A stretch of DNA of 64,000 nucleotides, taken from assembly GCA_002633005.1 (NCBI GenBank), contig NMRA01000055.1, positions 1,189,429-1,253,428 on the forward strand, written 5' to 3'. Below the pieces are notes generated by a model. That model did no database searches. It was not told where the DNA came from and saw nothing but the letters and a program-made list of their open reading frames with translations. A program made the translations under genes and the position numbers. The stretch comes from Phoronis australis. Taxonomy: Eukaryota > Animalia > Phoronida. Shown here piece by piece: positions 15,043 through 44,018 of the stretch. Within the stretch, counting starts at the first letter, position 1. Every line of letters starts with the position of its first letter.

Positions 15043-15469
15043 ATGTGTAACTCTATTGGAATACTGTATCACGACTCAGACTCGGCACTTGTAACACAAA
15101 TAGTCGACATTCTTGAAGGACCATTTTTTACACAGTGCTTTTTCGCCGGTCGTGACATGGTAAAAGCCGATTCCATGACGTATGTCTTCGATTTCTTGGA
15201 GTACATTTTAAGTAAGTGTAGAAAGTTCGTCATCGTGCTTTCAGACAATTTCTTCTCGTCTCGCGAAACAAGACTTGACTTGATGTCCTTCTTTATTCGT
15301 TTCGACCAAGGAAACTGCAAGGTGTCCTTCATAACGGTCAACGGTAAGCCTAACATACCGTACCGAAGGTTGCTTGCGATGGAGAAGAGTAAAACGGCAA
15401 AATTCATCAACTCCATCGAATATGAAGAATATCTTTCTCTGGTCAAAGCTATCAACAGAGCACTATCAG
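15043..15469 (+). CDS. TIR-ZU5-UPA protein A, exon 1 (TIR domain)
   Basis: In-frame TAG at 15007 precedes the ATG. TIR motifs IGILYHDSD, CFFAGRD, KCRKFVIVLSDNFFSS...DL. Donor G|gtcagt, phase 1. Confidence 0.88.
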
Positions 15470-16173
15470 GTCAGTATTGCACAATTTTTAATTACATCGA
15501 ATCGTCTTGTCAGTTATGATGAATCTAACCAACTTCCACGAAGCCGTAAGTTTTCTATAGTGAGCTGCGATGATCTGATCACAGTTGTGGAAATCAGAAT
15601 TAAACGCGACTGGATGAGGAATATCACCGCGTTAAGGCCCGGCCTGGAGTGCCCCAGCCGCTGTAATAGGCCATTGACGGGGGAAAGTGTCGTCGTAAGA
15701 TTATTATAGTAAGACGCATTATTATATTAGTTAAGAGTCCCACTACGAGTCCAGAAGTCATACGCACAAGTGCCTGGTCGCACAGCCACGTGAAAAGAGC
15801 ACTAGTGTGAGTCGTGGTATTGATTGCCAGGTTTGGCCCTCGATCTTCAAAGGCGTGCCGTGTGCCACGGGTATTTTATGGTTAGCATTTACACTATTCA
15901 TGGATTTCCATTCACAACGCCACTTTTGAGGTACTAATGAAGAAATATGAAAATCCTAATATAAGGCACACGTGACTCTGGTCTCCACGCAGTTAATGTA
16001 CGGCGTCAGTGAAATGCTGACAATTATACTGGTCCAATTATACTGGTCCAATTAGATTTAGCAGATGAATGAAAATTTAGGCTCTCTCAGAATTAATTAT
16101 GTCTTTCATCATAGTTTCCAGCCACCAATTTAAAGGTATTTTGCCAGCTACGACTTGAAATAACTAGTCATTC

Positions 16174-16425
16174 ATGCGCGCACCCAGGGGGGGGGGCTCG
16201 GGGGAGTGGGGTTCAAAGGAGCCCGCCATTGGGAAAAGTGGGCAAAAAGGTCCGCCTGCGAGAAATAAAGTCCGAGAAAATGAGACAAAAGTCCACTAAA
16301 CAAGCACAAAACGCTCACAGAGGTGCGCGGGTTTTTTATTTTTTTTAGTCTGCCGGCTATTGTGTTACCAAAAAGTTCCACAACGTTAGAAATTCGAGCC
16401 CCCTATAAGGCCTGGGAGCGCGCAT
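16174..16425. mobile_element. Short interspersed MITE family with CATGCGCGCACCCAG-type TIRs (other copies ~28849-29092, ~30760-31012, ~37125-37370)
   Basis: Shared TIR and internal gaagtgggc...aaggtccgcc...gagaaa motif across copies. Confidence 0.7.
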
Positions 16426-16545
16426 GTCCTTCCAAAGCGCCTATTTTACCATAGTTTTTTTGCCTCAGAATCTGCCGAGGCAACTGCCCTGGCTGCCCCC
16501 CATTGATAATATTGCCCTAGTCGATTACATCTCTGCGTAAAATTA

Positions 16546-16833
16546 TCGTTGGCCAAATAACTGAACGTTACGCACGTAAATAGTAAATACGTGCGTGAAT
16601 TAATTCTTGCTAGTGGCGTAAATTAATTATGAACGGCTTCAATTAATTATTTGCGACGCAAATTATTGAAATTTTAAATAAGTAAATTAAATCTTGTTAG
16701 TGGCGGAAATAATTCTTATTAGTGGTGTAAATTAATTATTTTCGGCGAAAATTAACTTTTAACGGAGTAAATTAATTCTTTGCGGCGAAAATTAATTATT
16801 TACGTGCGTAACGTACACAACTTTGGCCAACGA
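16546..16833. mobile_element. MITE with TIR TCGTTGGCCAAA, TA TSD and internal ~21-bp AATTAATT repeats
   Basis: ta|tcgttggccaaa...tttggccaacga|ta, plus an inner inverted pair cgttacgcacgtaaata / tatttacgtgcgtaacg. Confidence 0.8.
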
Positions 16834-17506
16834 TATGAAAGCAGCCCTGGTATCTTCTTGTACACCCTTTTTGCTTACTTTACCACCTGAGTCTTTCGCG
16901 CCAAAGGTCAAACCGCTTTTTTAATTTCTTCATTACACTCTTTCTTGACGTCATTCTTAATTGCTGTCGCATTGCATACAGCGCCGATCCAATTTCGATT
17001 ATCTTTGAGGTGCCCTTATGCCAGCAACTACGAGCAGTAGACAAACTGGTTTAGTAAGGAAAATAAACGAGGAGTTGCACCAATTACACTCGTCATATCG
17101 ACGAGTACATGTAGTTGCTGAGAGTTCCAGAAATTAGCGTTGCATGCAGACTTACAAATCGCTGTATGCCGGACAGACCTTAATGGCGAAGGCAACCTTT
17201 TTTCATATCATTTTCAGCAAAAATAGGGTTCGTTGATTATCCCAGACATATTTTTCACTTATTTACAGCTTTTCGTAATTTAATTAATTACTCGTCCTCT
17301 ACTCCGGAAGTGATGTTTTAGGAGGCAAGAATTTCGCGCCAATTTCTTTTCATACAGTCAGACTGTACCCCTGTTACATGTACGTTCAGCTAACGACCAT
17401 GCCAGTAATAATCGATGACCTTTTTACACATGGGTTCATAAACCCACCAGAGGTGTGCTTTTACCTGTGCACTGTGGTTACTAATTGACCCTATTCCTTG
17501 ATTCAG

Positions 17507-17602
17507 ACGAAGCTGGCAGAATCTCCGAATTTCCGTTAAACAAATACAAGTTTGTATTCGGTAGCTGCAAAGATGGAGATGTTCATGAAGGTGGCCCTAC
17601 TG
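17507..17602 (+). CDS. TIR-ZU5-UPA protein A, exon 2
   Basis: ttgattcag|AC...G|gtgagt; DEAGRISEFPLNKYKFVFGSCKDGDVHEGGPT, homologous to 34798-34890. Confidence 0.85.
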
Positions 17603-18531
17603 GTGAGTCGTTGCAAATGGCTGATATTGGTGTGTCTTTTCTAACGATAGCTCATTTGCGGGCGAGAACTCTTCGATTCGTGCGAGACAATTTTAATTGT
17701 TTTCCGAAATCTTGAACATGTTTCACGTGAACTCAGTTTTTGTGGAATTATTATCTGTGTTGTATCAAACAGAATTTTTCCTAAAAATTACACAAAAACC
17801 GCAAATGTGGTCTTTCGTTGAATTTTGCCAATTTTTAAAGTTATTTCGAACACTAGAAAAATAGCTAAAGTTGGCTTATTTAGAACACCGTATCTCGGAA
17901 ATGGCTGCTCGGTTTCATTTGAAACTTTCAGATATTTTGGTTTCTGCAATGTTCTCCTAAACGCTCAAAATTTGAATTTTGTATGAGACGCTTTTAAACA
18001 TTAGGACTTTTGTGCTTTTATGAAAAAAAATTAATAGTTGGACAAAACAAAAGCCGATAATATAGAAAGTGGTAACAGTTTTTAAGATTTTATCTTGAAC
18101 ATTTAAATCGGACAAACTGTGGTCATTATATTGGTACCATTGTTAGCTATGAATAGCCACCGACCTCGATTTCAAAGAATGTTTGGCAGACAGCGAAGGG
18201 GTTTCATGATTTGTAATAAAGTCACAACAACGCTAATTATTTTGTTTTTCACAACTCTGGCCAAAACCGATAACTACAAGCAATAATCATGGCCAGTTCC
18301 TTCTAAATTCTGAAATCACGTTCATGTACAAGGCGGGTTCATAGACATTTAAATAGTTTTAAGAAGAATTTTGTGATATGCAATTTTTGTTTTGGTCCTT
18401 CGTGTCACGCGTGGTTGCCAGAGCGCGAGAACATTTGATTGAAGTTTTGCTTAGATGTAGTTGCATTTTCTTCATCCAAGAACTGTTCGAACGTTGAAAA
18501 TGACCTGAGAATATGTTTTTTCCCAATGTAG

Positions 18532-18665
18532 TCTCCGATCCACACGTGGTTTTGGACGTTCAGAACACTGTAGTGACCTTCAAAGCTGGCTTCAAGAAAG
18601 CCATATTGGGCGAAGGTGTCCAACTTTGTTCTTCCGGCAACCATGACTTTCAGGTTGTCGTTGAG
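18532..18665 (+). CDS. TIR-ZU5-UPA protein A, exon 3 (start of ZU5-like region)
   Basis: aatgtag|TC...GAG|gtaagt; VSDPHVVLDVQNTVVTFKAGFKKAILGEGVQLCSSGNHDFQVVVE, homologous to 37512-37648. Confidence 0.85.
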
Positions 18666-21600
18666 GTAAGTGTATTTGTGTTTCTTGTCTAATTCTGTGC
18701 CACAAAAATCAACTTTTTATCTTGTTTCCGCGCTGTTTTGCACTACTCTCCACCGATACACTTGCCATTGGCGCTCTGTATATGTGGACCCGATCGAAGC
18801 AGTGTGCGTAATTTCTTCCAAAGGCAAAGTTGTCTCCCCTACGAACCTCTGTAAGGCTACTGATAATATCCGAAAGAAGCCGACCCTCTTTACTAAATGG
18901 AAGCACCCGAACACAGCAGTACTGTGAATGCTCCTACCAACAGTAGTAATTAAGCATTGCATAAAAGTTACTGTCAATATTCCTCAAAATTCACTAGTGA
19001 CAGCTAGAGAGTGCCTAATGAGAACCAACACCCTGCTTTGTCAAGGACCTAAGCACAGGAGAAACCCGACTTCTCTATACTTAGAACGATATTGGAATTC
19101 CTGTTGGCAAACAGTTCTTTGACATGATTTATAAATGTGTGCCTTCAGTTTGAATGTGAGTTGTGACCACGTTTACGTAGCATCGCTTTTAACAGTGCCG
19201 GAGGTAATTTTTCTCCGGGTATTTTTCTTCACGGGGCCTAAATTAATGTGAAGAATTTTGAACCCATGAAAAATGACCTCCACATCCGCGAAAGCTTGTC
19301 CTGTCAGTGTTCAACGATTCCCCCGCCGTGTGGGAGTTGGGACAAGTAAATATACCCGCAACAGGTGATCTGTCAATAATGTTCGTCTGGGGGTGACCTC
19401 CTCGGGGGAGGGGGAAGAGGCTACTGGTGTGGGTTAGCCATCGAAAACTAAAACCCCCGAGACGTGGTGATCTGGGTCAGGTGGCGGTTAGACTATTCTT
19501 AAACGTATAGGACTATTGTTGACCTGGGTGTCGGATTACTCAACACCCAGCCAAGGAGCTAGGCGCCAAGGATGTGTCAACGGGGTGGGGCAAGGATAAG
19601 GGTATTGGATATGTGGGGCTTGCGGGCAAGGAATAATGTAAAGGTACGTATGTCCGCGAACAATATGTCCATAAGAACTACAGTGTATGTTCGTTAGGCG
19701 CGACAATTGTGCTCAGTGGATCGGGAGCATTTGCACTCGTGAGAGGGGAACAGCGTGCGTCTCTCACGGTGAGAGATGATTGAGTCCTGGCGCAGCAACA
19801 TGGGGACGGGCTTCATATCAAAGTAAGCGAGGGGGTGCAAGAATAGGGAACGGCGTGCGAGGGTATAGAATGGTGTTTCAGTGCAGGCTTGGAACCAAAG
19901 TGCGGGAGCAGAGATAGTCCCTGGTGGTCTCTGAGATCGAGAAACGTGTCTGATAAATTGTCAGTATAGAACTGTCAGAGAGTACGCAATCGACAACGCG
20001 GTGTGGATGGATGATTTGCATCAGAGAGATAACGTAGCGGCGTGCAGGCCAGGAATATGACGTGTAGGAGCTGGGTTGCTCTGTTTACAAACAAAGAAAA
20101 TTATGTCCATGACCACAAGGCTGAGTAGAAAAATGTGGTGCTGCCTCAATTGGATCGCAGGACTATGAATCCGGCCGTTAGAGGGTCAAGTGTGCGTGAG
20201 AGAAGAATTTTAAATTTCTCGGCTGTGCGGCGCGCGGTGTATGAGATGGAGGGATGTGGATGATGTGTGAGAGCAGAGCTTATGTCTTTGCGAGCAAAAA
20301 GGTACACAAAACGCCGAAAATGCATGGTGCTATATCGGGGGACTTCGTTCGTCATATGGCCATCACTGTTACTGCATGAGCTAGGCCTACTGCATATTAA
20401 GAGCCTTTCTGTTTTTTTTTTTTTAATTTAGGAACTTAAGTCTCCTCTCGACATTTTGTAATTGTTCTAGGTCCAAATATGGATTTTAATGAAGGTGTTT
20501 CTGCAATCAGATATCCCACTGCATAGATAGTGTCTCATACCATTCAGCTTGAATTTGACCCGCGTGGGCCGGACTACAAATGATGTAGTGCCCGTGCAGC
20601 TTCCATGCTTTTTTCCTAACAGGGAACAACGTGATACTGTTCATTTTCTCTCGTGTGTAAGAATGTGTAACCGAGCCTGTTTCTATGTAGTGTCAATGAA
20701 CTAACGTGTGAGCTTAATTTCATCCAACCGTACTTCACTACTTTTTGGACTTAGGAACCGGTGTAAACAAGGTTAGTTTGCGAATCTTCCCGCATTATTA
20801 GATGCTTATCTTTATGGTGTTTGTATATCTGTAGTCCCTTGCACGTGTGTACAATGTACGTTAAGCTGTTTATCTCTTATATGGAATATAGATCGCTTCT
20901 TTTTAAAATGTTCTTGCTTGCAGACTCTCTCAAATTGGCATGCGCAGTTGTATTAGACGCACCAACGCAGCAATAGGTGGAGTGAGATCTCAAAGGGACA
21001 TTATCGGAAGAAAAGGCAATTTTACATAAATTAGCTGCATCGCTGTTTCGAACCCATTAGCTGCGCTGTAGCAGCTGGACGGCCCTTCCAGCAATGATTC
21101 CAAATGGCGTCTTTTGGTCGTAAAATCGATAGTGGACCTTTGAGACCCACATAGCAATCGTCCTATTGAACTGTCTAAAACACTGTGACGGTTTTTAGTT
21201 TGCCTGGGATGTCATGGTACTCGTTATCCAATGGCTTTGCGGCTAGTTAATCTCTCTCCGCTTCCTGTTGTGATATTCGGCATGTCGATGTGAAACGTCC
21301 CATCTACCTCCATTTTGAGAATATACCGTTGAACTTCCGGTTGAGGGTATGTGTCAAGGTCACAAACTTGGGTGCGGGAGTAACGCTAGCACTTGCCGAG
21401 TCACGTGCAGTGAAAAGTCATGGCTTTGTTGCCATGTCAGTTTTGGAAGTGTGGCGAGAATCTTGATAGTGTGAGGTCTTGCTTTTCACCAGCAAAATCT
21501 TGAATTATCCTGCAAAACTTGTAAAAACTGTCCCCTTGCTCTTACCCTTTGCATGCCGCTGTTTCAGCTCGATTGGCGAATATTTATTTTAAGATGTTGC

Positions 21601-22485
21601 TCCATTTTTACGCTTGACCATGCATTGGGGAGCACGGACTGTGGCTGTGAGGTACAAACCCTCATATTATGGGAAGGAGTTGTACCCCAAACTTGAATAG
21701 GACGGACGAGAAATGGGAAGGCAATACCTATGACGCCAAAAGCGGTGGAACTAGATACTAATCTTCATGAGTAACATAATTCCATCGCTGACGATGTGGA
21801 CCGTTATTTTGCAGAGGCGGATCTACAGGGGGGGGGGGGGTTCAGGGGGTTTAAACCCCCCCCTCGGGACAGGATCAAAAATAAAAACTGGAAAAAAAAT
21901 CGCCAGAAAAACGAAATTAGCTACTAAAAATCCAAAAAAATCTTACACGGGAGGAGGGAAACACTCTCGCGACCTTCCTTCCCCTCGGCGCTACGCGCCT
22001 CGGATTCTCTCGAGTCCTAAACCCCCCCTTACTGAAATCGTAGATCTGCTACTGTTTTGATATTGGTAACCGCTTTGATTTCAAAAGAACTGGTATGGTT
22101 GCCGATTTTGATGTCATGCTAGTGTAATTAATCAAAACCCCATCCTTCACATCTCTTGTCTTTCTCATTTCTGACTCGTCCTTCCCGTCCACAGTGTATG
22201 CTTCACGCTGCATGATGAAGCCTTATTTAGCCATCCGTGGTGCTAGGTTTAAGTGACATGCTCCGTTGTTTCGACCTTCCCCAATGGTGCCGCAACACAC
22301 CTGTCCTTGCATTGCTCTGTACAACACGAAGCTGTAATTCTTGTTAAATATAGCCTCAGTTTTCCTCAGGTGCCTTATACACTTTTGCGGTTCTTAATGG
22401 CGAGTTGTGTAGCATTACTTTGTACGCGACTGGTACCAAGAATTTTAATAAAGAAAAGGCCTTAGCATTTCATTTCTTTTGCCAG

Positions 22486-22823
22486 AGAATGTACTTGTCA
22501 GCGGAAGTCATGAAGTCTGTCACAGATTCCAACCCAGCATTCGCTCCCCTGATTTCCAGCGTGACGCCGTTGTACTTTTTTTCTGTGAACCCGGCAAGAA
22601 ATGCAGAAAATGGCTCCAGTAGTAAGCTCGACCATCCGGAGTTGCAAGCCCAGCTGCAGCTGTGGTCTCTGCGAGATTCTAAGGCATCCAGAAACTATCG
22701 AGTTATGTTCTCCGAGTCTGTCAATTTTTTTGGTGGAAATTGGTGCGATGCAACGGACAGATCTCTGTGTACTTTGAATGGAAAAGCAGCGTGCTTTGAA
22801 CTGGTCCTCAACAAGTATGGCGT
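22486..22823 (+). CDS. TIR-ZU5-UPA protein A, exon 4 (ZU5-like)
   Basis: ttttgccag|AGA...GT|gtaagt; RMYLSAEVMKSVTDSNPAFAPLISSVTP...YRVMFSESVNFFGGNWCDATDRSLCTLNGKAACFELVLNKYG, resembling the second ankyrin ZU5. Confidence 0.85.
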
Positions 22824-23546
22824 GTAAGTTCACAATGGCACCAATTGTTTGGCTTCGTCAGTTCCGCCGAGTCAACCAGCTAAGAGGTTTTCGCCTGCGT
22901 TCGGCAACGCTAGGATATCGCTAAAAGACGTGATTTTGGCTAGATTTTAGCGAGGTCCTAGCGAAGGTCATAGTGTTACTGAACTCAATCGACAACGTTT
23001 TGTGGGCCTAAGTCGTTATTGAGAACCAATCAAAGGGCTTAGCCCTTTGACTCGGCGTGTCACGCGAAGTACTGTACCGCATTCAAGTGCACCAACTGTA
23101 CAAAACTTTGAAATGTCTCATGCGCAAATTATTTACTCGAATGGACTTAGTTGTATTGAACTTAAATTCCCGATCATAATGCTAGCCTGCTTACTAAAGT
23201 TTTGTTTGTGAAATTGGAAAGCTCCAGTGCAAAATATACCCAAATCTCACTTGCTTTACGTTTATAAGCCTTAGGTGTCAATGTGAAAGATTCACAAGAA
23301 TTCCGAGTCTGTTCATTTCAGAAACAGGTACGTCTATTTGTCGTTTTTAGCCTGCAACGTTTTAATGTGCTTAAAAGCACCGAGATCATAATGTTCCGTG
23401 GGTGACTTTAATTTTGAGGAAGTAAATCTAGGGTATAGCTTTTGGTAGTTGATTCAAACACATTCAGGTAAACTCATCTCTTTTCAATCCTAGTATTCTT
23501 AATTGGTGCTCGATATTTAACCGCAAGCTTGCAACTATTTTCCTAG

Positions 23547-23985
23547 GTATTTACTTTGCGAGGTAGACCAGTCATCCTTGGAAGACATGACCAAAGTGTC
23601 ATGTATCCTCCAGGCCATGAGCGACTATCTTTCGCAAAACTATCAGAGGTTTTCTGCCATGGTTAGCTCTGACCGGCGGAAGGTTACCTTTTGCGCCATG
23701 AGGCCGTCAAATGGCAAGTATCTCAACGCAGTGTGCACGACTGAGTCGCGGTGGCATCGGCAGGCATTCATACGAGTACCAAAATCAACCATAAGGGGTA
23801 CTTTGAATGTGATCATCGATATAGAGGCCGGCTGCAAACGTATGTGCGTTCCTGCCACGTTTGACCTGCACAAGCAAAGCGTCATTTGCAAAATTCTGTC
23901 CTTGAGGGACATTTGCCATCAAGCCAAGATTACCTGTTGTATAACGGAGAAGAAAGACGTGGTATTCGAGTTTAAGTATCAAATG
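23547..23985 (+). CDS. TIR-ZU5-UPA protein A, exon 5 (end of ZU5 plus UPA-like beta domain)
   Basis: ttcctag|G...ATG|gtatgt; VYLLCEVDQSSLEDMTKVSCILQAMSDYLSQNYQRFSAMVSSDRRKVTFCAMRP...VVFEFKYQM. Confidence 0.85.
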
Positions 23986-24286
23986 GTATGTGTGCATTTA
24001 AAATTGTTCACGATTTTATATGGTTACTTCAGCACAATAACGGATTTAGGATATCATGCTGGTTGGCACCATTTTGTCTCGTAGACAAGCACGCTTTGCA
24101 GCGCCCGAAAATGGTTGAAATACCTTTTTATAGAAGGTAGAAGGTGAAACGTGACAACTACACTACATACTAAAAACTACTTTGAAAAGGTAAAGTCTCC
24201 CTTAACCCTATATATATATGTATATGTATATACTATGGCCGTAGCTTACAGTATTACGAGGAAATGTCACCTGTTTATTTTACCAG

Positions 24287-24383
24287 GCTAGTCGCTTCTT
24301 GCGCTCACCAGAGCTAACACGGTCGTTGATGGCTTCCAGCATCTCTTGCAAAGGAGACTGCAACCAAAACAGCGAGTACGAAG
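24287..24383 (+). CDS. TIR-ZU5-UPA protein A, exon 6
   Basis: ttttaccag|GCT...G|gtgggt; ASRFLRSPELTRSLMASSISCKGDCNQNSEYE, homologous to 42415-42487. Confidence 0.8.
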
Positions 24384-24781
24384 GTGGGTACAATGATCCG
24401 CGCTCACTTGCAACAGATCAAAAGACGGGTTTGCGCGGTCGGTTTCTCTATTAAGACAGAGAAATAGATCTGAGTTGTATTAAAATTGATTGCGATGATC
24501 TCTTGGTTACAATACACATGTATGTATAGTCTACGAAAATCAACATTTGTACTAATTTCTTTAGCCGTGTTTGCAGTCAAATAAAAACGCACATTTTAGG
24601 CATAATTCCAAAAATCGCCCCGTAGGCGTGTAAACGGCATTTTATTTCAAGGAATGAAAAAGTCTATACCCCAATGTATCCCTGCAGTGTACACCTATAC
24701 TGTATTATTGTACTTTTTGTACACTTCGTACATGTAGGCCAGATGTTAATGCGGAGTATCGTATTTTATTCCTTGTTCCAG

Positions 24782-25014
24782 AATCATCTTCAAGAAGAAA
24801 ACATTCGATACCCGACCTTGACGCACGTGCTAGAAGCCTGCTGAAATACGGTAGTCGTTCGCCTTGGGACAGAGGCAAGAAGGAAAGAAAGCGTGATTCA
24901 AACGAATCTCCAAAATATAACCCAGATGGTGTTATTACGGCACGCCATCTGACAAAAGCCGTGTCAGTAGACGATGAGGGCTATAAAGCCATTCGACAGT
25001 TGATTTACCCATAA
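24782..25014 (+). CDS. TIR-ZU5-UPA protein A, exon 7 (terminal; total 587 aa)
   Basis: ttgttccag|AA; ESSSRRKHSIPDLDARARSLLKYG...SPKYNPDGVITARHLTKAVSVDDEGYKAIRQLIYP*. Summed CDS is 1764 nt with no internal stop. Confidence 0.82.
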
Positions 25015-28117: not shown

Positions 28118-29572
28118 ATTGGGCCAAGTACCCAACTACCAGGTAGCAGTTGGATTCTGAGGTACAATAGGCCGTTCGGTTTGCCTCATTCTGGAGAGTT
28201 ATTTTTATGTCCTTCACATGACACCGCGTCAAATAAAAATCTAGGCTTCAAATCAGCAGGACGTGAAGGGTCTCTGGGTCACAGAGACTATCCGTCATTT
28301 CCAGAGAGTCGTTTGATTTGTAGGTAGTTCTCCCATACTGTTGAAATTACTGCGCATTATTGACAGCCGCCGTTGTTTGCCAACAGTTTGGAAGTACCAC
28401 GAAGAGACGCTTTATAGTTTCCGTAACTGCACGTTCACTTTCATCCTCCAACCAGAATGGCCTAATGAGCCCATGTTTCGATCTTGTCAGGTGATCGTTA
28501 TACTATTTAGTAGTGGAATGAAGTGGCCTCTGAGTTCATGTGTTTAGACAATAAAACAGAGCTTCATCAGACTACCATGGGTGACGCACCATAGGGCGCG
28601 GGGTGGGGGACTATAGCTCCCCACTTCTTTTAGTGACATAGGCGGCGCACCATAGGAGCCTTTGGGGCTATATCCTCCACTTATTTTATTGCTGTGCCCC
28701 CATGAATACCATTTGTCATCCAAGAAGTCGGGCCACAACAATCATCTCAGTTTGTCTCAACATGCATGCACGTTTCCGCAGAAAACGTTATTTCTGCAAC
28801 TGTTCAAAGCATCTTGTAAAAAACCTGCTCAAAACGTTCACACAGGTGCATGCGCACACACATGGGGGGGGGGCTCGAAGGAGTCCCCCCATTTGGCGAA
28901 GTGGGCATAAAGGTCCGCCCCTGAGAAACAAAAAGTACGAGAAAATGGTACAAAAGGGCACTAAATAAGCAAAAAAAGGTGCACCCGGTTTTTTATTTTT
29001 ATTTTTTTTAGTTCGCCCGCTTTTTCGTTACCAAGAGGTCCACTACGTCAGAAATCCGAGCCCCCCCATATTGAAGGCTGGGTGCGCGCATGCAGGTGTA
29101 CACTGGTTTTCCTAATCAAAACACAATTGTTGACGTGTTCATGTGCGTCATGTTTTTGGTCACCCGATACATGTACATGTACATAGATGTATTATCGCCA
29201 CGGTCATTTCAAAGGTCAATCAGTCTTATCTATCAAGGATGGACAAAGAACAATAGGCCGATACGTCACGTTGCGATAAAATTCCCTGAATTCGGATTTA
29301 GCCGAACGTGAAAGTACTGACGCATAACTATACATTCTGTTTCTCTTGTGCTGCGTCCTCTCGACATCTAACAACAAGAAATACATATACTGTACGTCAA
29401 CCTAAGTCGGTCAACAAACGAGGCAACGTTGCGACTGCGCAGAAATGGGTGAGTAACTTACATGTATATCGACTGTGAATAGCGACAAAATTTGGTTCAC
29501 AGCTATGTGCGAATCCATAGGAATTATGTGTCACGACTCGGACAAAAATTTCGTGAAAAACGTTGTAGACGT
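28118..29572. repeat. Second near-identical duplication, copy 1 (upstream region and first ~22 codons of TIR gene B); probable allelic haplotig
   Basis: Colinear with 30067-31483; ends exactly at the N at 29573. Confidence 0.88.
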
Positions 29573-29573
29573 N

Positions 29574-31415: not shown

Positions 31416-31842
31416 ATGTGCGAATCCATAGGAATTATGTATCACGACTCGGACGAAAACTTCGTGAAAAACGTTGTAGACGTTCTTGAAGGACCATTCT
31501 TTAACTCAAACTGCGTGTTCGCCAGTCGAGACATAGCATTCAGCACTGGGCCGGTAACATTCCAGTATGAATTTTTAGAACACTTTCTGCAAAATCTCAC
31601 TAAGTTTGTGATCGTTTTATCCAACAATTTTCTCTCATCGCACCAAAGTCAGCATGATCTGGAAGCCTTCTACTGTCGCTTCGGTCAAGGAAACTGCAAA
31701 GTTGTGTTCGTGAAGAATGACGATCTGATCGACTTGCCGTTTAGGCTTCAAGCACTGGAGAACAAACAGGCAAAATTCATCAAAGCGAGTAAAGACAGAG
31801 GGCATCTCGATGTAGCCAAAGCTATCTGCAGAGCGTTATCAG
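31416..31842 (+). CDS. TIR-ZU5-UPA protein B, exon 1 (TIR domain)
   Basis: MCESIGIMYHDSD...KFVIVLSNNFLSSHQSQHDLEAF...KAICRALS; same 427-nt length and phase-1 donor as gene A exon 1. Confidence 0.88.
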
Positions 31843-34389: not shown

Positions 34390-34797
34390 TTTTGGGGGTG
34401 GTCTACCAACAGAATGGCCGCTGCAGCTGAATGTCACTGCGAAACTTACTGTTTTACACTTTCATTACAAGATGTGAAGTGTTATCTGTTTGAATCATAT
34501 TCCTTTCACTTTGGCGAGAATTTCTCTGTGTCCTGAATTGGTATAAACAAAAGAAGTTTGAGACCTTACAAACACATAGCAACTGATTACAGTATGTTGC
34601 GTTGATATTCAGTTATTGCACTGCAGGCAAAGAATGTCATTTTATGAACGTGATTTATAAGCATTTGATACGAGTCGTGTCCCCTTTTAAATGCCAAGGC
34701 AAGGTTTTATGCTTTAACTCGCACGTGGGCAAACGTTTCCTGAAAAACGGAATTTGCGTTAATCTGTGGTTAGGTAATAGTATTTTGCTTGATTTAG

Positions 34798-34890
34798 ATG
34801 ACGCGGCTAGAGTGTTAGAGTTCCCGCTGCAAAGTTACACGTTTGTCTTCGGTGATAAAGAGGGCGCTGTGCACGAAGTCAGTTTGGGTG
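34798..34890 (+). CDS. TIR-ZU5-UPA protein B, exon 2
   Basis: ttgatttag|AT...G|gtgagt; DDAARVLEFPLQSYTFVFGDKEGAVHEVSLG. Confidence 0.85.
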
Positions 34891-36424: not shown

Positions 36425-37001
36425 CTCGCTGGTTCCCTGCGTGCCGCTAGGTGGGGCGGTAGCCGCGCCAGCACGCAGGTATCACTTAAATTTCCTCTGT
36501 AAATTTTTTTACACCGGCGTTTCTGATTGGCTAGTCGATTCGTCAACAGGCAGCGCTTTGCGTAAACAAACTGGCATGGCTGATGGACTGAAGTGTAAAT
36601 GTGGTCTGTTGTACAGACAAACCGGTGCTTAAAATTATGTTCAGGAAATGTGAAGCCTAGAAATTGTGATTGAGCCTTTTCGGAATGCATCTTTCTACTG
36701 TCGATGACTTTTGTTTACAATAGTGTCCTTATACAGTATGAATAACACACCGTAATATGTGTTTATTGTGCATGTATGTGCTTCAAGCACGCAGCTATTA
36801 AACATCACTGCACAAACGAAATAGTTGCTGCGACGCCACTTACATGACAAGGCTAAAATCATTCACAGTCTGCCATTTTTTCACGGTGTTGTAAAGCTAA
36901 CCAATGACTGCAAAGATTACACCGACCAATGCTAAAGCGCGTGCCACTGCGTGATACCTGCGTGCGTGCTGGCTGGGCTAAGCACGCAGGGAACCAGCGA
37001 G
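36425..37001. mobile_element. Non-autonomous DNA transposon, 20-bp TIR CTCGCTGGTTCCCTGCGTGC with 9-bp flanking direct repeat (MULE-like)
   Basis: ACATGTAAC at 36416-36424 and 37002-37010; a tiny derivative lies at ~42748-42798. Confidence 0.78.
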
Positions 37002-37511
37002 ACATGTAACCTGCGCGCGGGCATTTGAGCGCGAATTACAAATGGCGAGTGAATGGCTAGACTTTTAAAAAGACGTCTGAAGATTATTGATGTCAGGAAT
37101 TTAGTATACCAGGTAATGAAAGTATGCGCGCACCCAGCCTTTAGTTTGGGAGGGCTCGAATTTCTGACCAAGTGGACCTTTTGCTAACAAAAAAGCTTGA
37201 GAACTAAATAAAGACGGGGTACCACCTTCAGCACTGGGAACTGTGAGTCTGCGCCTTTTTAGTGGACTTTTGTCTCGCTTCCACGGACTTTTGTTTCTCT
37301 GAGGCGGACCTTTTTGCCCACTTCGCCAAGGGGGGCTCGTTCAAGCCGAGCCCCCCTGGGTGCGCGCATGGAAAGGGCTAATTTGTTAGCATTGAAACCG
37401 GATTTGTACTTTTAACTGCACCAATATATCCATCACTATCTCATTTCATGAGCGAGGTTTACAAAATGTCTACATAGGGGCCTACTCTTATATACATTGT
37501 CTTTTTCAAAG

Positions 37512-37648
37512 AAGGCTGTCGCCAACATGACATTTTGGACATCCAGACTTCAGTAGTGACCTTCGTACGTGGCTCTCCAAACGCCATACTGGGCAAGGGT
37601 GTCCAACTTTGTTACTCAGGCCACAACAGACTAGATATCGTCGTTGAG
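37512..37648 (+). CDS. TIR-ZU5-UPA protein B, exon 3 (NAGNAG acceptor, alternative start 37515)
   Basis: EGCRQHDILDIQTSVVTFVRGSPNAILGKGVQLCYSGHNRLDIVVE|gtaggc. Confidence 0.85.
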
Positions 37649-37855
37649 GTAGGCATAAGTATTGTGACTTTACTTTGAAATGTCGTACTGTTTAGACATG
37701 TCTCGTTTGGTGTATCCTCCACAATTGTTTTCACCCTAGGATTGATTGATCTAACCATTTATCTGTGTTTGCAATCTAGTTATATTCCTCTGTCTTCAAG
37801 GGTTAATAGTCACACACTTTCAGAATACGAAGACGAGAGCGCTTCACGAAACACT

Positions 37856-38165
37856 ACTGCCTCCCGTTCAGGAACGCTAGGACCACGCTAAAAAGCAAGA
37901 CTTCGCGAGATTACGTGAGATATTGCCGTGCATTTTAAATAAGAACACGTGACTTTGAATAGGTTTTATCTAGGTACTAGCGTAGGTCCAGTAGCGTCTA
38001 CTGAACGCACGCCAGCCTCCCGTTCAGTAACGCTAGGACCTCGCTAAAAAGCAAGACTTCGCGAGATTACATGTACGTGAGAAATTGCCGTGTATTTTAA
38101 ATGAGAGCACGAGATCTTGACTAGATTTTAGCTAGGTCCTAGCGTCTACTGAACGCACGCCAGGC
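37856..38165. repeat. Tandem dimer of ~155-bp repeat; inverted copy at ~40676-40832, degenerate copy ~22890-22985
   Basis: Shared core cgctaaaaagcaagacttcgcgagattac...gtgaga.attgccgtg. Confidence 0.8.
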
Positions 38166-39353
38166 TTCTACTTCACGCCTGTTATTCCCGGACATGTTTA
38201 GGGAGTATTAATCAGCATGCCGTGTGCCTGTTTGGGGTTTGAAAACCCCGTACCACTCAGTAGGGACTTTATTTGTTACCTATCAAAAGGGTCATCTGGA
38301 ATCGTGGATGTGTCGCTGTGTGTGGTGTCGATGATTTCCCCGAGTGCACTTTGCGATTGCGTAGCTTTATGTCGCGGTAACTGCTTCCTGTGTAATATTA
38401 TCGTGATCACAACGAGGAGACTCTGGCGTATCGTTCATGCAAAGTGACGTATGTAGGAATACGCTCCACAAAACAATTTTAGAAAAATTAAATCTCACTT
38501 GAGCAAAAGCGTAAAGTTTCTGAGAACATATACGTAAGTGATAGCTGAGGTAATTTCTACGGCAATTCTTCACTTATTCAGCACAGAATGGCCGACAAAG
38601 GAAATTCTATTTACTACAAAAGATGTTTAGAAGTTAGTCTATGACTGTCATGCAGATGTAGTTTGTACTATTCAGATGTCATAAACAACTTCCGGTAAAC
38701 TTTACATTAAATTTGTTAATAAAAGGCAGTTGAAATGGTATTTGGTGAAACGTGAAAGCAGATCACTTAAGTTGAGAGTTACTTTAAATTCCGTTTGTTA
38801 TAATTACTGAACTTATCCTGGTTATTGAACTTGTATACGTTTATGTATTAAGTATGGGTGCGTTCTAACTTTTATTCGTTTCACTTACGGTTATAAATTC
38901 GATTCCACCTGGTTCCTTATTCAAAAGTGTTTCCCAGCTTGCGAAAAACTGGTAAGTCTTTACTAATTTATTTGTTACGGCAGTTTTAGTTGCCGAAGCA
39001 GTGAGGCTGGCTAGGAATTCCAGTCGTTTTATTTCAACCAATTTCAATATTCAAACGGGTAGCAACGCTATGGCTCTACGCCTGCGAAAAAAATGTTTTG
39101 ACCCCGGAAATTGATAGCGGCTTTGATGAGAAGGCTATGCACAGAAAGCGAAGTACTGTTTAACGTGGGTGGCGCAGCATAGGGGGCTGGGGGGGAGGGG
39201 GGTTTAGTACTCCACTTTTCAGTGCTGAGTCGCTTATGGTCTATGGGCGGTGCACCACAGGGGGTTAGGGGGGCTATAGGTCGCCCACTTTTTTCAGTGC
39301 TGCGCCGCCAATGTGTTAACACGGTTCTTGAAATTTTCTCCTCTTTTCGACAG

Positions 39354-39694
39354 AGAATGGAGTTGCCAGAGCAGGTCATGAAGTCCCTCATTGACGCCAA
39401 CCAGTCGGTATTTGCCCCGTTGATACCCTGTGCCAAGCCGTTGTACTTTCTTGCTGTAAATTCAACAAAAAGTGCTGAAGATGGCGCCAGTGAGAAGTCC
39501 AAGCCACCGGAGTTGAACGCCCAGCTGCAGCTGTGGTATCCGTGCGATTCGGACGGTTCTAAGCACTATCGCGTTATGTTCTCAGAAACTGTTAACTTCT
39601 TCGGTGGAAATTGGTCGGATGTAACGCACAGTTCACAGTTTGCTTGGAATGATCAAGCGGCATGCTTTGAACTGGAGCTCAAGAAATACGGCGT
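39354..39694 (+). CDS. TIR-ZU5-UPA protein B, exon 4 (ZU5-like)
   Basis: ttcgacag|AGA...GT|gtaagt; RMELPEQVMKSLIDANQSVFAPLIP...YRVMFSETVNFFGGNWSDVT...CFELELKKYG. Confidence 0.85.
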
Positions 39695-41293
39695 GTAAGT
39701 TTGTTTTGCAACAATATAGACAAAACCTCAGGATGTAGGTTTATTGTGCAATACTTGATATTCTCCAATTGTTATGACAATGCTGGTACTTATTTCAACC
39801 GCGTTGATGGAAGGGCGAATATCGTCTCTATTCCCTTCCCAAAAATATTGAAAAATCACGCGAAATTCCCCTCATGAGGCCTAAAAACCCCCAAAAGTGA
39901 TTCGAAATTTCCTTTCGAAGTTCAAATCACTTGTAAACACCCAGGTGACAATTTGAAAGAGCACAAAATGCTGCTTGATACAGATCCTATGAGAGCTTGC
40001 ATCAGGGCGGGGAAAATATTGATGGTGATAGGGAGGTAGAATTTCCGCCTCATTCGGCGAAATAATCCAATCTCAGAACTCACAGCCACCTTTCCACTCG
40101 GATGAACGAGGCTCCTGAAGGAACATGATAACTATGCTTGTTCTTCTCAGTTTACTAAAATTAAGCTCTAAAACGACACGGGTTATTTTCAGGTTAGTCT
40201 TTAAACGAATGAACTAGGTGTTTTAATTTCAAAATTCAACTTGCTCCAGATTAATATTTGAAACCTAACACGTGAAATAGATGCAAGAATTATTAAAAGC
40301 AATATAGCAGAATTGATGTTAAATAAATTTTAGCTTTAATTAACGACCTGTTTTTAATTTTAATAAAAAATAATTTTAATAGCATCAGTCATTCCTGCAG
40401 GTTAATGACAAGTCCCGTAGCCTCTAACTCACTGCAGGACCTACATTGTCAGCTGTGCATGATGATAATATTCTTGATCAACAAATTAAACCAGATTTGG
40501 TCATATTATTTACTTTTCATGTTTCGAACCTAGTTTTCCAAAACAACTTTTACCCTTTCGTCAGACAACTCAGAGTCTTTGCTTCATTGACTTGTTCTGT
40601 AATGTATTTTCTACGTCTCTGTGGTTGATTATTGACACATTTTTAGGATTTAATATCCAGTTTGGACTCGAAAGACCAGGCGTGCGTTCAGTAGACGCGA
40701 GGACCTACGCTAGGACCTAGCTAAAACCTAGTCAAAGTCACGTGTTCTTATTTACAATGCACGGCAATATCTCACGTAATCTCGCGAAGTCTTGCTTTTT
40801 AGCGAGGTCCTAGCGTCACTGAACGGGAGGCAGCTATTTAACTCACTCAATGTCAACTTCCGCTTTGTTTATTGCAGTGAGCCTCGCTTTGGATTTTAAT
40901 GTCCGCCCCTGAATTAGAAGTATAAGGGAACATGTTTGAGTTTGTGATGATACACGAGGTCTTTTAAACAAAAGTGGACTTTCCATCTCATCCCTTGGGG
41001 GCCCCATTGTACACGGTTCCGCACATGACCAGTGTCACGTTGCCACTTGAAAGTCTATCAAGCCGACAATTGGAATTAATTTTTAGGCCTGCTTTTATGT
41101 TAGATACTTAGGTAGGAAAACAAGTTGGTTATTTTGCCTTTGCAGTGTGGTTCACTGAAGGAATGTTTTTTTGAGATTTGACGAATTTCATTTGTCTTAA
41201 TATTTCAAGTAAATCCACCGTATAAATACCCATGGTGTTAAAGATTTTGTTTTGAGCTTGACACTTCTAATGCAACCTTTTCATCCGTTGCAG

Positions 41294-41594
41294 GTATTTA
41301 TTATCTAAGGTAGACCAGACGTCCTTGGAAGACATGACCAAAGTGACGTGTGTTCTTCAGGCCACGGGCGAACTTCTTTGTCAAAACTACCTGAGGATGA
41401 CCGCAATAATCAGCGCAGACCGGCGGAAAATTTCGTTATGTGCCGTGAGACCTTCAGACGAGAAATGTCTTGAAACAGTGTGCATAACCGATTCCCACTG
41501 GCACCGACAGGCATTCGTGCGTCTGCCTAAAGCTTATATTGGCGGCTCTTTAGACTTTACCTTGGACATAAAAGCTGGATGGAAACGCACACGT
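41294..41594 (+). CDS. TIR-ZU5-UPA protein B, exon 5 (3' part lost at assembly N 41595)
   Basis: ttgcag|G; VYLLSKVDQTSLEDMTKVTCVLQATGELLCQNYLRMTAIISADRRKISLCAVRP...DIKAGWKRTR, then N. Confidence 0.82.
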
Positions 41595-42414
41595 NGGACA
41601 GTTGAACCCTAACTTAAACGGAATGTTGCTACTTTAGATGTATTGGACTAGCCAGGTAGTCGTAGCAAAGCCTTAGTTGAATTCGAAAACACGAATTTAA
41701 TCATTCTTTTGGTGATTCCGCTTAAATTTGTCTCTTTCACCTACAGTCAGCAATATATTTTCCCTAGGTGAGGGCTTGGAATTTTAATCTTTTTGAAAAG
41801 ATTTTCTCTTTTTGGCTTCGATTTCCTTCTATTTGATTTCCAGTTTCCTCTTTTTATCATTGTTTTGATTTTATTCATGCAGTAACGTTGATTTCAATTA
41901 AATTTTACAACACAAAAAATATTTTCATGACACAAGCCTATTTATTTGTGGAACAATACAAAAAAACATTTTCCTCTTTTTTGTCATTGGTCGTTCCAAG
42001 CCATGTATTATTCAAGGAAAACTGCCATGGGCACAAAGCCAATCACTGGTGTTAGTCGAGGTGGGCGGTGACTTTGTTCAAAGCGGTCAACAAACCTCAA
42101 CTACTCTGTTTGGACGGGACTTTGTCACGCAAGCTCAGATTTAGCTAAGCAGATGCAAATTTTCCGATATTTGAGGCTTGGCGAGAACAATACTTTGCTT
42201 CAACTAATTGTAAATGATCTATTAGTATTTAATTCTGTTTTCAAAATAAAACGAAATTCATTTTAAATCAGCCAGCATGGATGATACAAAAATCTAGGAA
42301 TTTCTGAACTATCACATTAATTTGTTAAACATGGTGCAAAGACAGGTTAATCTTTGTTGCTGAAATCCAGCCCCAATACTTAACAAGTAAACACTTGTCC
42401 TTTTGATTCACCAG

Positions 42415-42487
42415 GCAAGTCCATTTCACCGTTGCACGGACTCGCTAAGAAGATCACTAAGAGCTTGTGAAGTAACCTGTGAACTAG
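42415..42487 (+). CDS. TIR-ZU5-UPA protein B, exon 6
   Basis: ttcaccag|GCA...G|gtgagt; ASPFHRCTDSLRRSLRACEVTCEL. Confidence 0.78.
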
Positions 42488-43707
42488 GTGAGTGACATGC
42501 AGGTGTGGCATACAAGTACCTGTAGCATTGTTTTGAATAATTCGAATGTGTGTTTGAAATAGCCTCCAATCTCGATTGCTTTGATAAATTGTTGCATGTG
42601 TTTGAATCGATTGGTCAGTTAATTCCACTGCGGGTCTTCGAACACACAACGTCAACACAAGGAACTTGGCGTAGTTGAAACGTCTGTCGTACACAGTGCG
42701 GGCTTCTCTCAAACGTTTTTGTAGGCGTCACCGAGTCAACTACATACTCGCTCGTTCCCTGCGTGCCGCTAGGTAGCCAGGCGCAGCGAACCAGCGAGAA
42801 GCAGATAAGCCACCTGAATGGTTTGTAAGCCGAAGATTGTCATCAAGAACCAATCAGATGCCTTAGACTTCAATCCGCGAAACCGGCAAAGTCGTTCAAG
42901 TGCAGTCAGTGATTCATATTGTTGCTTTTTTGTTCACTTGAGAGATCGTGTGACACTTTAAGACGTTGGTGCTACGGGAGCAAATCACTACGACCAAAAA
43001 CGGTTGCTCGAACGAATTGATCAACTTCCAATATGTCAACATGGTCGAATGTTGAATCTAAGTAAGAACTTTTGAAAAGTGCTACGTGCTCCAGCCACGT
43101 GACATTGATCCCACGTGGCACGGCAGGGCGGAGAATGTCCGTCATCATAGAACTGTTCGCCTGTTTAGTATGACTTTATTATGACGTTTTGGACCCGTTG
43201 AAATGCCAAAATTAAAAATCTAATATTTTGGCCGGATTGTCGTTCATGTGGCGCTATAAATTTCTAAGCACTTCGAAAATTATTACCTGTGCATGGACCC
43301 GGTCAATTAATCCTCAACTCCCCGGCTGCGTGCATTGGGTGCAACTGTCGTTGGAGGACACCAATTTATCTAAACACATAATTTTGTAAACACGCTAAAT
43401 TGTTCCCGTGTTCACCTGAATACAGGGTCTGCTAATTTAGGAAAACTGGTGTAACTGTAGATTTTTATTGCATTTCCTAGTTTTCGGTCCAAAATTGCCT
43501 CATCATCACTAAACATCCGAGTAGACTTTCCTGAAACATACATGTATCTACCTGTGCTTAACTGTTAGTGTGTGTGTTAATCTGGTCTTAAAAAGCCGAG
43601 GAGTATTTTCGAACCTCACAAAGCCGAGGAGGATTTTCGAACCTCACGGAAGACTTTTTTTAGCCCGCTTTCAAGGGATTGTTATGTGATTTGTTATTTT
43701 TTTGCAG

Positions 43708-44018
43708 AGAGCAATGAACTCGATAGCCAGCTTCACAATAGAGACATCAGTGGCCTTGTTTCACAACCAAATTCACGGCGTAAGTGCGAAATGTCCGAGA
43801 TTCACCGACGAAGCTCACGCCTACAAAGGTACGGTGCTCGTCTTGCGGGTCAGGAAAGGATGTCTCTATCTAGAGGCACGTGTGATCAGTGCTCTTCAAC
43901 ATTGCCACCAAGATTTAACCCCGACGGTGTCCTCTTGGCCCGGCATCTGACAAGACTTGAGCCAGCGGAAGATGAAAAGCCGAAAGACCGTCGACGTTCA
44001 CATACACATAGAAAATAA
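43708..44018 (+). CDS. TIR-ZU5-UPA protein B, exon 7 (terminal)
   Basis: tttttgcag|AG; ESNELDS...RRKCEMSEIHRRSSRLQRYG...PPRFNPDGVLLARHLTRLEPAEDEKPKDRRRSHTHRK*. Confidence 0.82.

What the first reader, a model, noticed from the sequence alone, without database searches (positions are those of the whole stretch)
15043..44018. Tandem pair of TIR-ZU5-UPA genes: candidate undescribed innate-immune adaptor family
Seen: two 7-exon genes with identical intron phases (1,1,0,2,0,1; the B exon-5 donor is inferred across the gap) and open frames, but clearly diverged proteins (TIR exons roughly 40-45% identical by eye), so they are old paralogs rather than alleles. Exon 1 is a TIR domain. Exons 3-5 align by eye with the ankyrin ZU5-UPA region: SAEVMKSVTDSNPAFAPLISSVTP vs PDEIVKKILGNKATFSPIVTVEP, and YRVMFSESVNFFGGNWCDATDRSLCTLNGKAACF vs LRLLCSITGGTSPAQWEDITGTTPLTFIKDCVSF. 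Known: in ankyrins, UNC5 and PIDD1, ZU5-UPA is followed by a death domain and acts as an autoinhibitory or scaffolding supramodule. Here there is no death domain, signal peptide, TM helix or LRR, and a TIR sits at the N-terminus instead. Inference: a cytosolic TIR adaptor or sensor whose TIR is gated by a ZU5-UPA module. I do not know of a characterised protein with this order.
Basis: partly seen in the sequence, partly recalled or inferred. Interest (0 to 1): 0.88.

Follow-up and report, generated by a model that had tools for sequence, protein, structure and literature searches.

The report
TIR grafted onto ankyrin-type ZU5 module
Two neighbouring animal genes, one of them shown to be transcribed, likely join an immune-signalling TIR domain to a scaffold module that shares its intron positions with the cytoskeletal protein ankyrin; I found no description of this pairing, and it would most likely act as a non-enzymatic feedback brake on Toll signalling.

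Summary
Two real paralogous 7-exon genes (phases 1,1,0,2,0,1). Gene A reads open for 587 aa and is transcribed; 5 of 6 splice joints were seen in reads, but not the TIR exon 1-to-2 joint. Gene B is cut by an assembly gap and showed no exon-1 reads. Exon 1 is a TIR fold (Foldseek, VIA, weak Pfam). Exons 2-4 are an ankyrin-type second ZU5: sequence likeness is faint and method-dependent, but an intron-blind alignment puts all three internal introns on same-phase ankyrin introns (1 of 9,907 shuffles). UPA (exon 5) is inferred only, from order, boundaries and strand pattern; its tests were not significant. There is no death domain, membrane helix or self-cleavage motif, and Asp sits at the likely catalytic Glu. 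A tandem kB-like pair lies upstream of A, and intron 3 is often retained (predicted 227-aa TIR-only form). No homologue was found among 1.84 billion representatives and no paper names the fusion, so the 'family' is two genes in one species. The scan has noted other ZU5-UPA fusions on other DNA, not this order. Best reading: exon-shuffled, NF-kB-inducible inhibitory TIR adaptor (0.4).

The parts
14710..14731 (+). Tandem pair of NF-kB-like sites about 320 bp upstream of gene A's ATG (consensus recalled, function untested)
   Evidence: Only pair within 30 bp among 12 nine-base sites in the window; 14 of 5,000 dinucleotide shuffles of the 500 bp upstream give such a pair. Noticed after the fact.
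14862..15042 (+). Gene A 5' UTR (minimum), with an in-frame stop at 15007-15009
   Evidence: An X8 contig piece covers 14862-15031 in one stretch; in-frame stop. Supports ATG 15043 as start, so TIR is N-terminal.
15043..15469 (+). Gene A exon 1: whole TIR domain (aa 1-142), phase 1 donor
   Evidence: Pfam TIR_2 E 1.8e-4, below cut-off; MyD88 TIR E 0.0013; five-strand five-helix model, Foldseek top 3 all TIR; sense reads.
17507..17602 (+). Gene A exon 2 (aa 143-175): aligns to the last strands of ankyrin ZU5-N and the start of ZU5-C
   Evidence: joint to exon 3 in 2/1/5 reads plus one contig; donor on ankyrin phase-1 intron 186.
18532..18665 (+). Gene A exon 3 (aa 175-219): N-terminal part of ZU5-C
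   Evidence: joint to exon 4 in 10 reads of X7, 0 in X5 and X6.
18666..22485 (+). Gene A intron 3, covered by sense reads; read-through stops at 18690-18692 (predicted 227-aa TIR-only product)
   Evidence: Depth about 1-7 across the intron against 0 in the repeat-free bin of intron 1 and 0-0.75 in intron 2; X8 contig runs exon 2 to exon 3 into the intron; translation.
22486..22823 (+). Gene A exon 4 (aa 220-332): C-terminal half of ZU5-C, bounded by ankyrin-matching phase 0 and phase 2 introns
   Evidence: End-to-end profile alignment z 5.8, 0 of 200 shuffles; intron match; joint to exon 5 in 0/6/3 reads plus a contig.
23275..23327 (+). Alternative donor at 23327 spliced to exon 5 (53-nt cassette or retained part of intron 4); frame-breaking
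   Evidence: 8 reads in X7; no open in-frame acceptor except a 6-nt one.
23547..23985 (+). Gene A exon 5 (aa 332-478): last ZU5 strand, helix, then a beta-rich domain inferred to be UPA
   Evidence: Helix then 8 strands in a low-confidence model; phase 2 to phase 0 boundaries as in ankyrin; alignment not significant; joint to exon 6 in 2/5/11 reads.
24287..24383 (+). Gene A exon 6: start of a polar tail
   Evidence: joint to exon 7 in 5/6/16 reads; no Pfam hit.
24782..25014 (+). Gene A exon 7 coding part: basic tail with a short motif shared with B (NPDGV..ARHLT); 3' UTR reads continue to about 26200
   Evidence: no match to an ankyrin death-domain profile or Pfam.
28516..29572 (+). 93% copy of 30412-31483 ending at an N, including the first 23 codons of B exon 1; likely an uncollapsed haplotype, not a third gene
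   Evidence: Self-BLAST; N at 29573.
31416..31842 (+). Gene B exon 1: TIR domain
   Evidence: Pfam TIR_2 E 4.4e-5; 51% identical to A; zero depth in bin 31575-32241 in 3 of 3 runs at 96% likeness.
34798..34890 (+). Gene B exon 2
   Evidence: 53% identical to A exon 2; open in the spliced model.
37512..37648 (+). Gene B exon 3
   Evidence: 52% identical to A.
39354..39694 (+). Gene B exon 4
   Evidence: 59% identical to A.
41294..41594 (+). Gene B exon 5, first 100 codons; the rest and the donor are lost at the N at 41595
   Evidence: 59% identical to A.
42415..42487 (+). Gene B exon 6 (phase 0 to 1)
   Evidence: AG/GT ends; 43% identical to A over 23 codons.
43708..44018 (+). Gene B exon 7 coding part with the shared tail motif

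Best explanation
The two genes are old tandem paralogues that likely arose when a single-exon TIR domain was shuffled onto an ankyrin-type ZU5 module with a probable UPA domain, and the product would most likely be a cytosolic, non-enzymatic, NF-kB-inducible TIR adaptor that damps Toll signalling. Shown: exon structure, TIR fold, transcription and 5 of 6 joints of gene A, shared intron positions with ankyrin, no death domain, membrane helix or HF/S-SF/S motif. Inferred: the TIR exon was spliced in at a phase-1 intron inside the first ankyrin ZU5, replacing the repeats and most of that ZU5, while the death domain was lost at the other end. The TIR would enter receptor or MyD88 TIR assemblies but, with no death domain, could not pass the signal to IRAK/Pelle kinases, so it would cap them; ZU5-UPA would stay uncleaved and serve as a docking or localisation scaffold. 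Retention of intron 3 would give a TIR-only form or hold the message until needed.
For: TIR fold: 3 of 3 hits at E<=0.001 are TIR; 7 of top 8 are TIR/SEFIR, Z 11.1-11.8, rmsd 2.7-3.4, 122-136 aligned. ZU5-C: z 5.8, 0 of 200; free placement of exons 2-5 z 3.7-5.6 with residue 175 on ankyrin 186 and 220 on 216 in 4 of 4 gap settings; 3 of 3 introns on same-phase ankyrin introns, 1 of 4,954 and 0 of 4,953 shuffles. Purifying selection in every tested domain exon. Sense transcription and joints. No death domain, no cleavage motif and top 19-residue hydropathy 1.18/1.24. BB loop lacks MyD88's Pro-Gly and Asp79/Asp81 sits at the column recalled as the catalytic Glu. kB-like pair, 14 of 5,000 shuffles.
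Against: No exon 1-to-2 joint among shown rows. Exon 3-to-4 joint in only 1 of 3 read sets. UPA not significant: z 1.4, below its own wrong-region controls (1.6, 2.0), z 1.0-1.7 in 8 settings, misplaced when free. HH-suite gave only E 0.07 (5 of 130 shuffles) and nothing in glocal mode even for exon 4 (25 of 100); single exon-4 sequences were beaten by 5 and 11 of 175 decoys; no Pfam ZU5/UPA hit. The 186 intron is in only 3 of 25 ankyrin loci. B lacks the kB pair and exon-1 reads. Inhibitory direction rests on analogy; no induction data.
Confidence: 0.4

Rival explanations
1. Autoinhibited activating adaptor or sensor: ZU5-UPA holds the TIR shut, a trigger opens it, and the TIR nucleates MyD88 or a TIR filament, possibly helped by UPA self-association as recalled for NLRP1/CARD8.
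For: Same architecture evidence; nearest solved sequence is the MyD88 TIR; ZU5 packs against the death fold in UNC5b (PMC3210808, passages).
Against: No self-cleavage motif to release anything; BB loop altered; TIR sits where ankyrin's first ZU5 sits, not where the death domain follows; no sensor domain found.
Confidence: 0.22
2. The main products are separate or short: a TIR-only protein from intron-3-retaining messages, with the full TIR-ZU5-UPA form rare or absent.
For: Intron 3 covered at near-exon depth, no exon 3-to-4 joint in X5 or X6, a contig running from exon 3 into the intron, frame-breaking alternative donor in X7; exon 1-to-2 joint not shown.
Against: 10 exon 3-to-4 reads in X7; exons 2-5 conserved with matching phases in both paralogues under selection; exon 1 depth like the other exons with zero depth just inside intron 1, and no competing joint from exon 1 shown.
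Confidence: 0.13
3. A TIR enzyme (NADase or signal-making) whose assembly is controlled by the ZU5-UPA scaffold.
For: SARM1/TIR-1 and plant TIRs are among the tied fold matches; the acidic residue is kept in both paralogues.
Against: It is Asp, not Glu, by alignment to MyD88 (column identity recalled); the catalytic Glu and BB-loop Asp/Gly are described as crucial (PMC13732033, passages).
Confidence: 0.1
4. A non-immune scaffold: an ankyrin derivative in trafficking, cortex or development, with the TIR as a plain interaction module.
For: Module shares introns with ankyrin; transcribed in three samples with no challenge on record.
Against: The spectrin-binding first ZU5 is mostly absent and the basic PI3P pocket of ankyrin-B ZU5-C is not kept (PMC4274267 passages; bioRxiv 2020.03.04.976142 passages); kB-like pair upstream.
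Confidence: 0.1
5. The middle region is not ZU5-UPA; the likeness and intron matches are chance.
For: No Pfam, PDB-sequence or fold hit; HH-suite glocal blank.
Against: Three same-phase intron matches from an intron-blind alignment; HMMER, HH-suite local and the profile alignment pick the same register; true ankyrin scores only E 2 against UNC5B.
Confidence: 0.05

Closest known systems
Ankyrin ZU5N-ZU5C-UPA-death domain (PDB 4d8o, 3ud1, 3f59)
   Same: Exons 2-4 align to the end of ZU5N and to ZU5C; three introns match in place and phase; exon 5 spans the UPA interval between matching phase 2 and phase 0 introns.
   Different: TIR replaces ankyrin repeats and most of ZU5N; no death domain; the RRK lipid pocket is gone; the ankyrin intron at 284 is absent; about 18% identity in the best block. 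Ankyrin was the only ZU5-UPA family I could compare, so the donor may be a relative with the same introns.
UNC5 cytoplasmic ZU5-UPA-DD and UNC5CL/ZUD
   Same: One complete ZU5 followed by probable UPA, uncleaved; UNC5CL is recalled as an NF-kB modulator.
   Different: No membrane helix or death domain; N-terminal TIR. Not compared by sequence.
PIDD1, NLRP1, CARD8 (FIIND = ZU5-UPA)
   Same: ZU5-UPA joined to an innate-immune signalling domain.
   Different: They self-cleave at HF/S or SF/S (PMC3210808) and carry the effector after UPA; here the motif is absent and the TIR is in front.
MyD88 and other cytosolic TIR adaptors (TIRAP/MAL, TRAM, SARM1)
   Same: Cytosolic TIR; MyD88 is the best solved sequence match (E 0.0013).
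   Different: No death domain, SAM or ARM; TIR is N-terminal; BB-loop Pro-Gly missing.
Lineage-specific shuffled TIR proteins of amphioxus and sea urchin (PMC2575513)
   Same: Same kind of event: TIR joined to a new partner domain.
   Different: ZU5 is not among the 28 amphioxus or 6 sea urchin TIR partners in Additional file 4; it appears once, in the sea urchin NACHT list.

Membership tests
TIR domain | Five-strand, five-helix TIR fold | tested here: met
   Model pLDDT 59.5 with the alternating pattern; Foldseek 3 of 3 hits at E<=0.001 are TIR; VIA 7 of top 8 TIR/SEFIR, top row MilB tied.
TIR domain | Pfam TIR or TIR_2 above the curated cut-off | tested here: not met
   22.4 and 24.4 bits against 28: divergent member.
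NADase-type TIR | Catalytic Glu in helix C and BB-loop Asp/Gly | tested here: inconclusive
   Asp79/Asp81 at the column recalled as catalytic, by alignment to MyD88 only; no assay.
Ankyrin-type ZU5 (ZU5C) | Homology to ankyrin ZU5C by alignment and gene structure | tested here: met
   weaker or blank by HH-suite, HMMER and Pfam.
Ankyrin-type ZU5 (ZU5C) | ZU5 beta-sandwich fold | not testable with these tools
   The domain is split over four exons and no deep alignment exists.
UPA domain | Sequence or fold match of exon 5 to UPA | tested here: inconclusive
   z 1.0-1.7; model pLDDT 41.5; boundaries and strand order fit.
Ankyrin / UNC5 / PIDD1 / UNC5CL (ZU5-UPA-DD proteins) | Death domain after UPA | tested here: not met
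   Tails score below zero bits against an 8-row ankyrin death-domain profile; no Pfam hit on exons 6-7.
Ankyrin | Ankyrin repeats, full ZU5N and the ZU5C basic pocket | tested here: not met
   pocket residues from PMC4274267.
FIIND / PIDD1 autoprocessing proteins | HF/S or SF/S before the last ZU5 strand | tested here: not met
   No such motif in A or the held part of B; the aligned site has Tyr-Gly.
MyD88 | N-terminal death domain, C-terminal TIR | tested here: not met
   TIR is first, behind a transcribed in-frame stop; no death domain.
TLR / IL-1R | Ectodomain and membrane helix | tested here: not met
   Top 19-residue hydropathy 1.18 (A) and 1.24 (B part); no LRR or Ig hit.
TIR adaptor (function) | Binds TLR or MyD88 TIR and alters NF-kB output | not testable with these tools
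   Needs experiments.

The most novel reading that the evidence does not exclude
An undescribed TIR-ZU5-UPA adaptor made by grafting a TIR exon onto ankyrin's scaffold module: an NF-kB-induced feedback regulator in which ZU5-UPA controls a TIR instead of a death fold, and a regulated intron switches between a TIR-only decoy and the full scaffold form.
Probability: 0.2. Interest if true: 0.75.

Novelty: new variant of a known kind. Interest (0 to 1): 0.52.

Why it matters
ZU5-UPA modules are known to control death folds (death domain, CARD). A version coupled to a TIR, without self-cleavage, would extend that module to the Toll pathway and give a natural test of whether ZU5-UPA is a general gate. 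The shared introns record the exon-shuffling step unusually well. Limits: only two paralogues in one species are known, TIR shuffling is common in invertebrates, and function is untested.

Tried and rejected
Homologue searches were blank: exon-4 alignment, longer proteins (1,436 candidates); TIR alignment, longer (1,241); exon-5 alignment, near length (18); metagenome loci (597 pattern matches, none confirmed); 1.84 billion representatives gave 1 hit, a tandem-repeat sequence I judged spurious. These blanks are weak evidence: the species' own proteins were not found either. PDB sequence searches with exons 4 and 5 were blank; a TIR fragment gave only an LRR chance hit. The exon-5 model (pLDDT 41.5) gave meaningless fold matches, best Z 4.6, no UPA listed. 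A co-folding job on exon 3, 4 and 5 products gave no verdict. The protein atlas gave no answer. No RNA holder was listed in the index; the RNA runs came by species label. HH-suite glocal mode found nothing. I rejected: a third gene at 29505 (haplotype copy at an N); an upstream coding exon for A (transcribed in-frame stop); the open frame 22354-22485 as coding (not conserved in B; reads use the 22486 acceptor); a degenerate death domain in the tail; folding exon 5 with ankyrin rows in the alignment (circular).


Full report
Setting. The window is animal DNA with five single-N gaps, two of them beside 93% duplicates that look like uncollapsed haplotypes. No whole genome is held; the organism is coded and I did not identify it.

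Gene models. Gene A has seven exons (15043-15469, 17507-17602, 18532-18665, 22486-22823, 23547-23985, 24287-24383, 24782-25014), all GT-AG, phases 1,1,0,2,0,1, open for 587 aa. Gene B has the same plan (31416-44018); exons 1 to 5a read open for 433 aa and exons 6-7 read open, but about 46 codons of exon 5 and its donor fall in the gap at 41595. Exon identities are 51-59% for exons 1-5 and 36-43% in the tail; dN/dS is 0.12-0.42 for exons 1-5 and 0.66 for exon 7, with dS 0.8-2.1. These are old paralogues under selection.

Transcription. Three raw RNA runs of one study (about a fifth of each read) and one contig set were laid on gene A. Reads on the unique exons all had the first mate on the minus strand, as expected for a plus-strand message. 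Joints in X5/X6/X7: exon 2-3 2/1/5, 3-4 0/0/10, 4-5 0/6/3, 5-6 2/5/11, 6-7 5/6/16. The exon 1-2 joint was not among the 15 of 27 rows shown, in this lay or the second. Indirect support: depth 6.5-8.8 in the bin 14802-15202, zero in 15604-16004, and no other joint from exon 1 shown. A contig piece covers 14862-15031, across an in-frame stop, so the TIR is N-terminal. Intron 3 carries sense reads at depth about 1-7, unlike introns 1 and 2; read-through would stop after 227 aa. This may be regulated retention or slow splicing in nascent RNA. X7 also has 8 reads from a frame-breaking donor at 23327.

TIR. Of 10 exon translations, only the two first exons matched Pfam (TIR_2, E 1.8e-4 and 4.4e-5, below cut-off). 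The best solved sequences are MyD88 (E 0.0013) and TLR2. The model (pLDDT 59.5) matches TIRs in Foldseek (3 of 3 at E<=0.001) and VIA (7 of the top 8). In the MyD88 alignment the BB-loop Pro-Gly is missing, and both paralogues have Asp (79, 81) in the column I recall as the catalytic Glu of SARM1-type TIRs.

ZU5. No library search found it. I fetched 113 metagenome loci with an ankyrin motif, confirmed one as ZU5-ZU5-UPA-death (Pfam; PDB 4d8o E 1e-201), and built a profile from 16 of the 113 chosen for long frames. Standard tools were weak: HMMER 1.9 bits for B and nothing for A; HH-suite local E 0.07, 5 of 130 shuffles; glocal blank; single exon-4 sequences beaten by 5 and 11 of 175 decoys. 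Such faintness is usual here: that ankyrin scores E 2 against UNC5B, and CARD8 matched UNC5b at 12% identity (PMC3210808). End to end, exon 4 against ankyrin 216-316 gave z 5.8, 0 of 200, with wrong-region controls at -0.2, -0.2 and 1.2. Placed freely on all 640 ankyrin positions with no intron information, exons 2-5 scored z 3.7-5.6 in 4 gap settings.

Shared introns. The ankyrin loci have introns at 216 (phase 0, 19 resolved junctions), 284 (phase 1, 13), 316 (phase 2, 6), 186 (phase 1, 3) and 145 (phase 1, 3, plus 12 mis-mapped nearby) among 54 multi-exon loci. The free alignment puts gene residue 175 (phase 1) on 186 and 220 (phase 0) on 216 in 4 of 4 settings, and 332 (phase 2) on 317 in 2 of 4 and in an adjacent gap in the others. 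Three matches within one codon arose in 1 of 4,954 column and 0 of 4,953 block shuffles; that test used 10 intron positions, after I dropped three multi-locus positions and most singletons as mapping artefacts. The 186 intron is in only 3 of 25 loci, and the 284 intron is absent from our genes. Exon 2 starts at ankyrin 155, ten codons from the phase-1 intron at 145 in a variable loop, so exon 2 seems to keep the last strands of ZU5N (which ends near 174 by PDB 3f59). The simplest history is a TIR exon spliced in at that phase-1 intron (inference).

UPA. Exon 5 starts at the 316-type intron and ends at a phase-0 intron; 10 of 19 ankyrin loci have a phase-0 donor four codons after the last UPA strand, nine of them apparently one clade. 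Length (146 against about 160) and a helix followed by eight strands fit. But the alignment is not significant (z 1.4, under its own controls; z 1.0-1.7; 26 of 83 decoys) and it is misplaced when free. I put UPA at about 0.75, by order and boundaries only.

What is missing. No death domain in the 109/127-aa basic tails, no membrane helix, no HF/S or SF/S motif. The ankyrin-B lipid pocket is not kept. The tails share one short motif of unknown use.

Promoter. Two kB-like sites three bases apart lie at 14710-14731, the only such pair in the window; 14 of 5,000 shuffles of the upstream 500 bp give one. Single sites are not enriched window-wide (5 found, 3.1 expected). This was noticed after the fact, and B has no such pair.

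Mechanism. A TIR that can likely join TIR assemblies but has no death domain to relay the signal, likely no enzyme activity, no self-cleavage and a probable NF-kB-driven promoter fits a feedback brake (0.4). A gated activator (0.22), mainly short products (0.13), an enzyme (0.1), a non-immune scaffold (0.1) and chance likeness (0.05) remain.

Novelty. Six hyphenated forms of the fusion gave 0 papers. ZU5 with TIR gave 16 papers, 8 with 'TIR domain'; ZU5-TIR-echinoderm 1, FIIND-TIR-invertebrate 3. I read passages of PMC8195603, PMC8260672 and PMC12909245, none describing it; the rest I saw as listings only. For PMC2575513 I read passages and Additional file 4, where ZU5 is no TIR partner; PMC2858798 supplements had no ZU5. 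Passages only: PMC4274267, PMC3210808, PMC3482391, PMC13732033 and two bioRxiv preprints. Domain-architecture tables in unread supplements (for example PMC8260672, PMC8195603) and InterPro could still hold this order. No homologue was found. Earlier scan notes list other ZU5-UPA fusions but no look-alike sequence.

Verdict. A real, apparently undescribed domain order built from known parts, with good evidence for how it arose and none yet for what it does. New variant of a known kind; interest 0.52.

Noticed in passing
window 14401-14801: Antisense reads at depth 46 and 33 in X5 and X6 but about 1 in X7, just upstream of gene A and over the kB-like pair: a divergent transcript from a two-way promoter, or a repeat.
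   Followed up: no
window 3510-7283 and 7870-11704: 92.6% duplicate on either side of the N at 7284; likely an uncollapsed haplotype.
   Followed up: partly
window 52118-53235: ORF remnants with a GIY-YIG match (E 2.3e-5), likely a decayed Penelope-type retroelement (label recalled).
   Followed up: partly
window 24383 and 31414: A's exon 6 donor (phase 1) is compatible with an AG two bases before B's ATG, kept in both haplotype copies, so an A-B read-through is possible on paper; no reads support it.
   Followed up: partly
window 28118-28459 and 30067-30416: 92% duplicated element with heavy reads on both strands at 29574-30240; a transcribed repeat.
   Followed up: no
window 16173-16426, 28849-29092, 30760-31013, 37124-37372: A family of about 250-bp interspersed repeats, 70-75% alike, that crowds the RNA joint tables.
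   Followed up: no
window 61133-63809: Several plus-strand open frames that may be exons of a neighbouring gene; no Pfam match above noise.
   Followed up: partly
window 15412-24981: Of 12 coding codons changed by the read variants I took from the shown rows, 7 are synonymous and 5 change the residue; none makes a stop.
   Followed up: partly
L002, L014, L034, L040, L057: Divergent ankyrin-like ZU5-ZU5-UPA sequences in metagenomes, some with long inserts in ZU5C.
   Followed up: no
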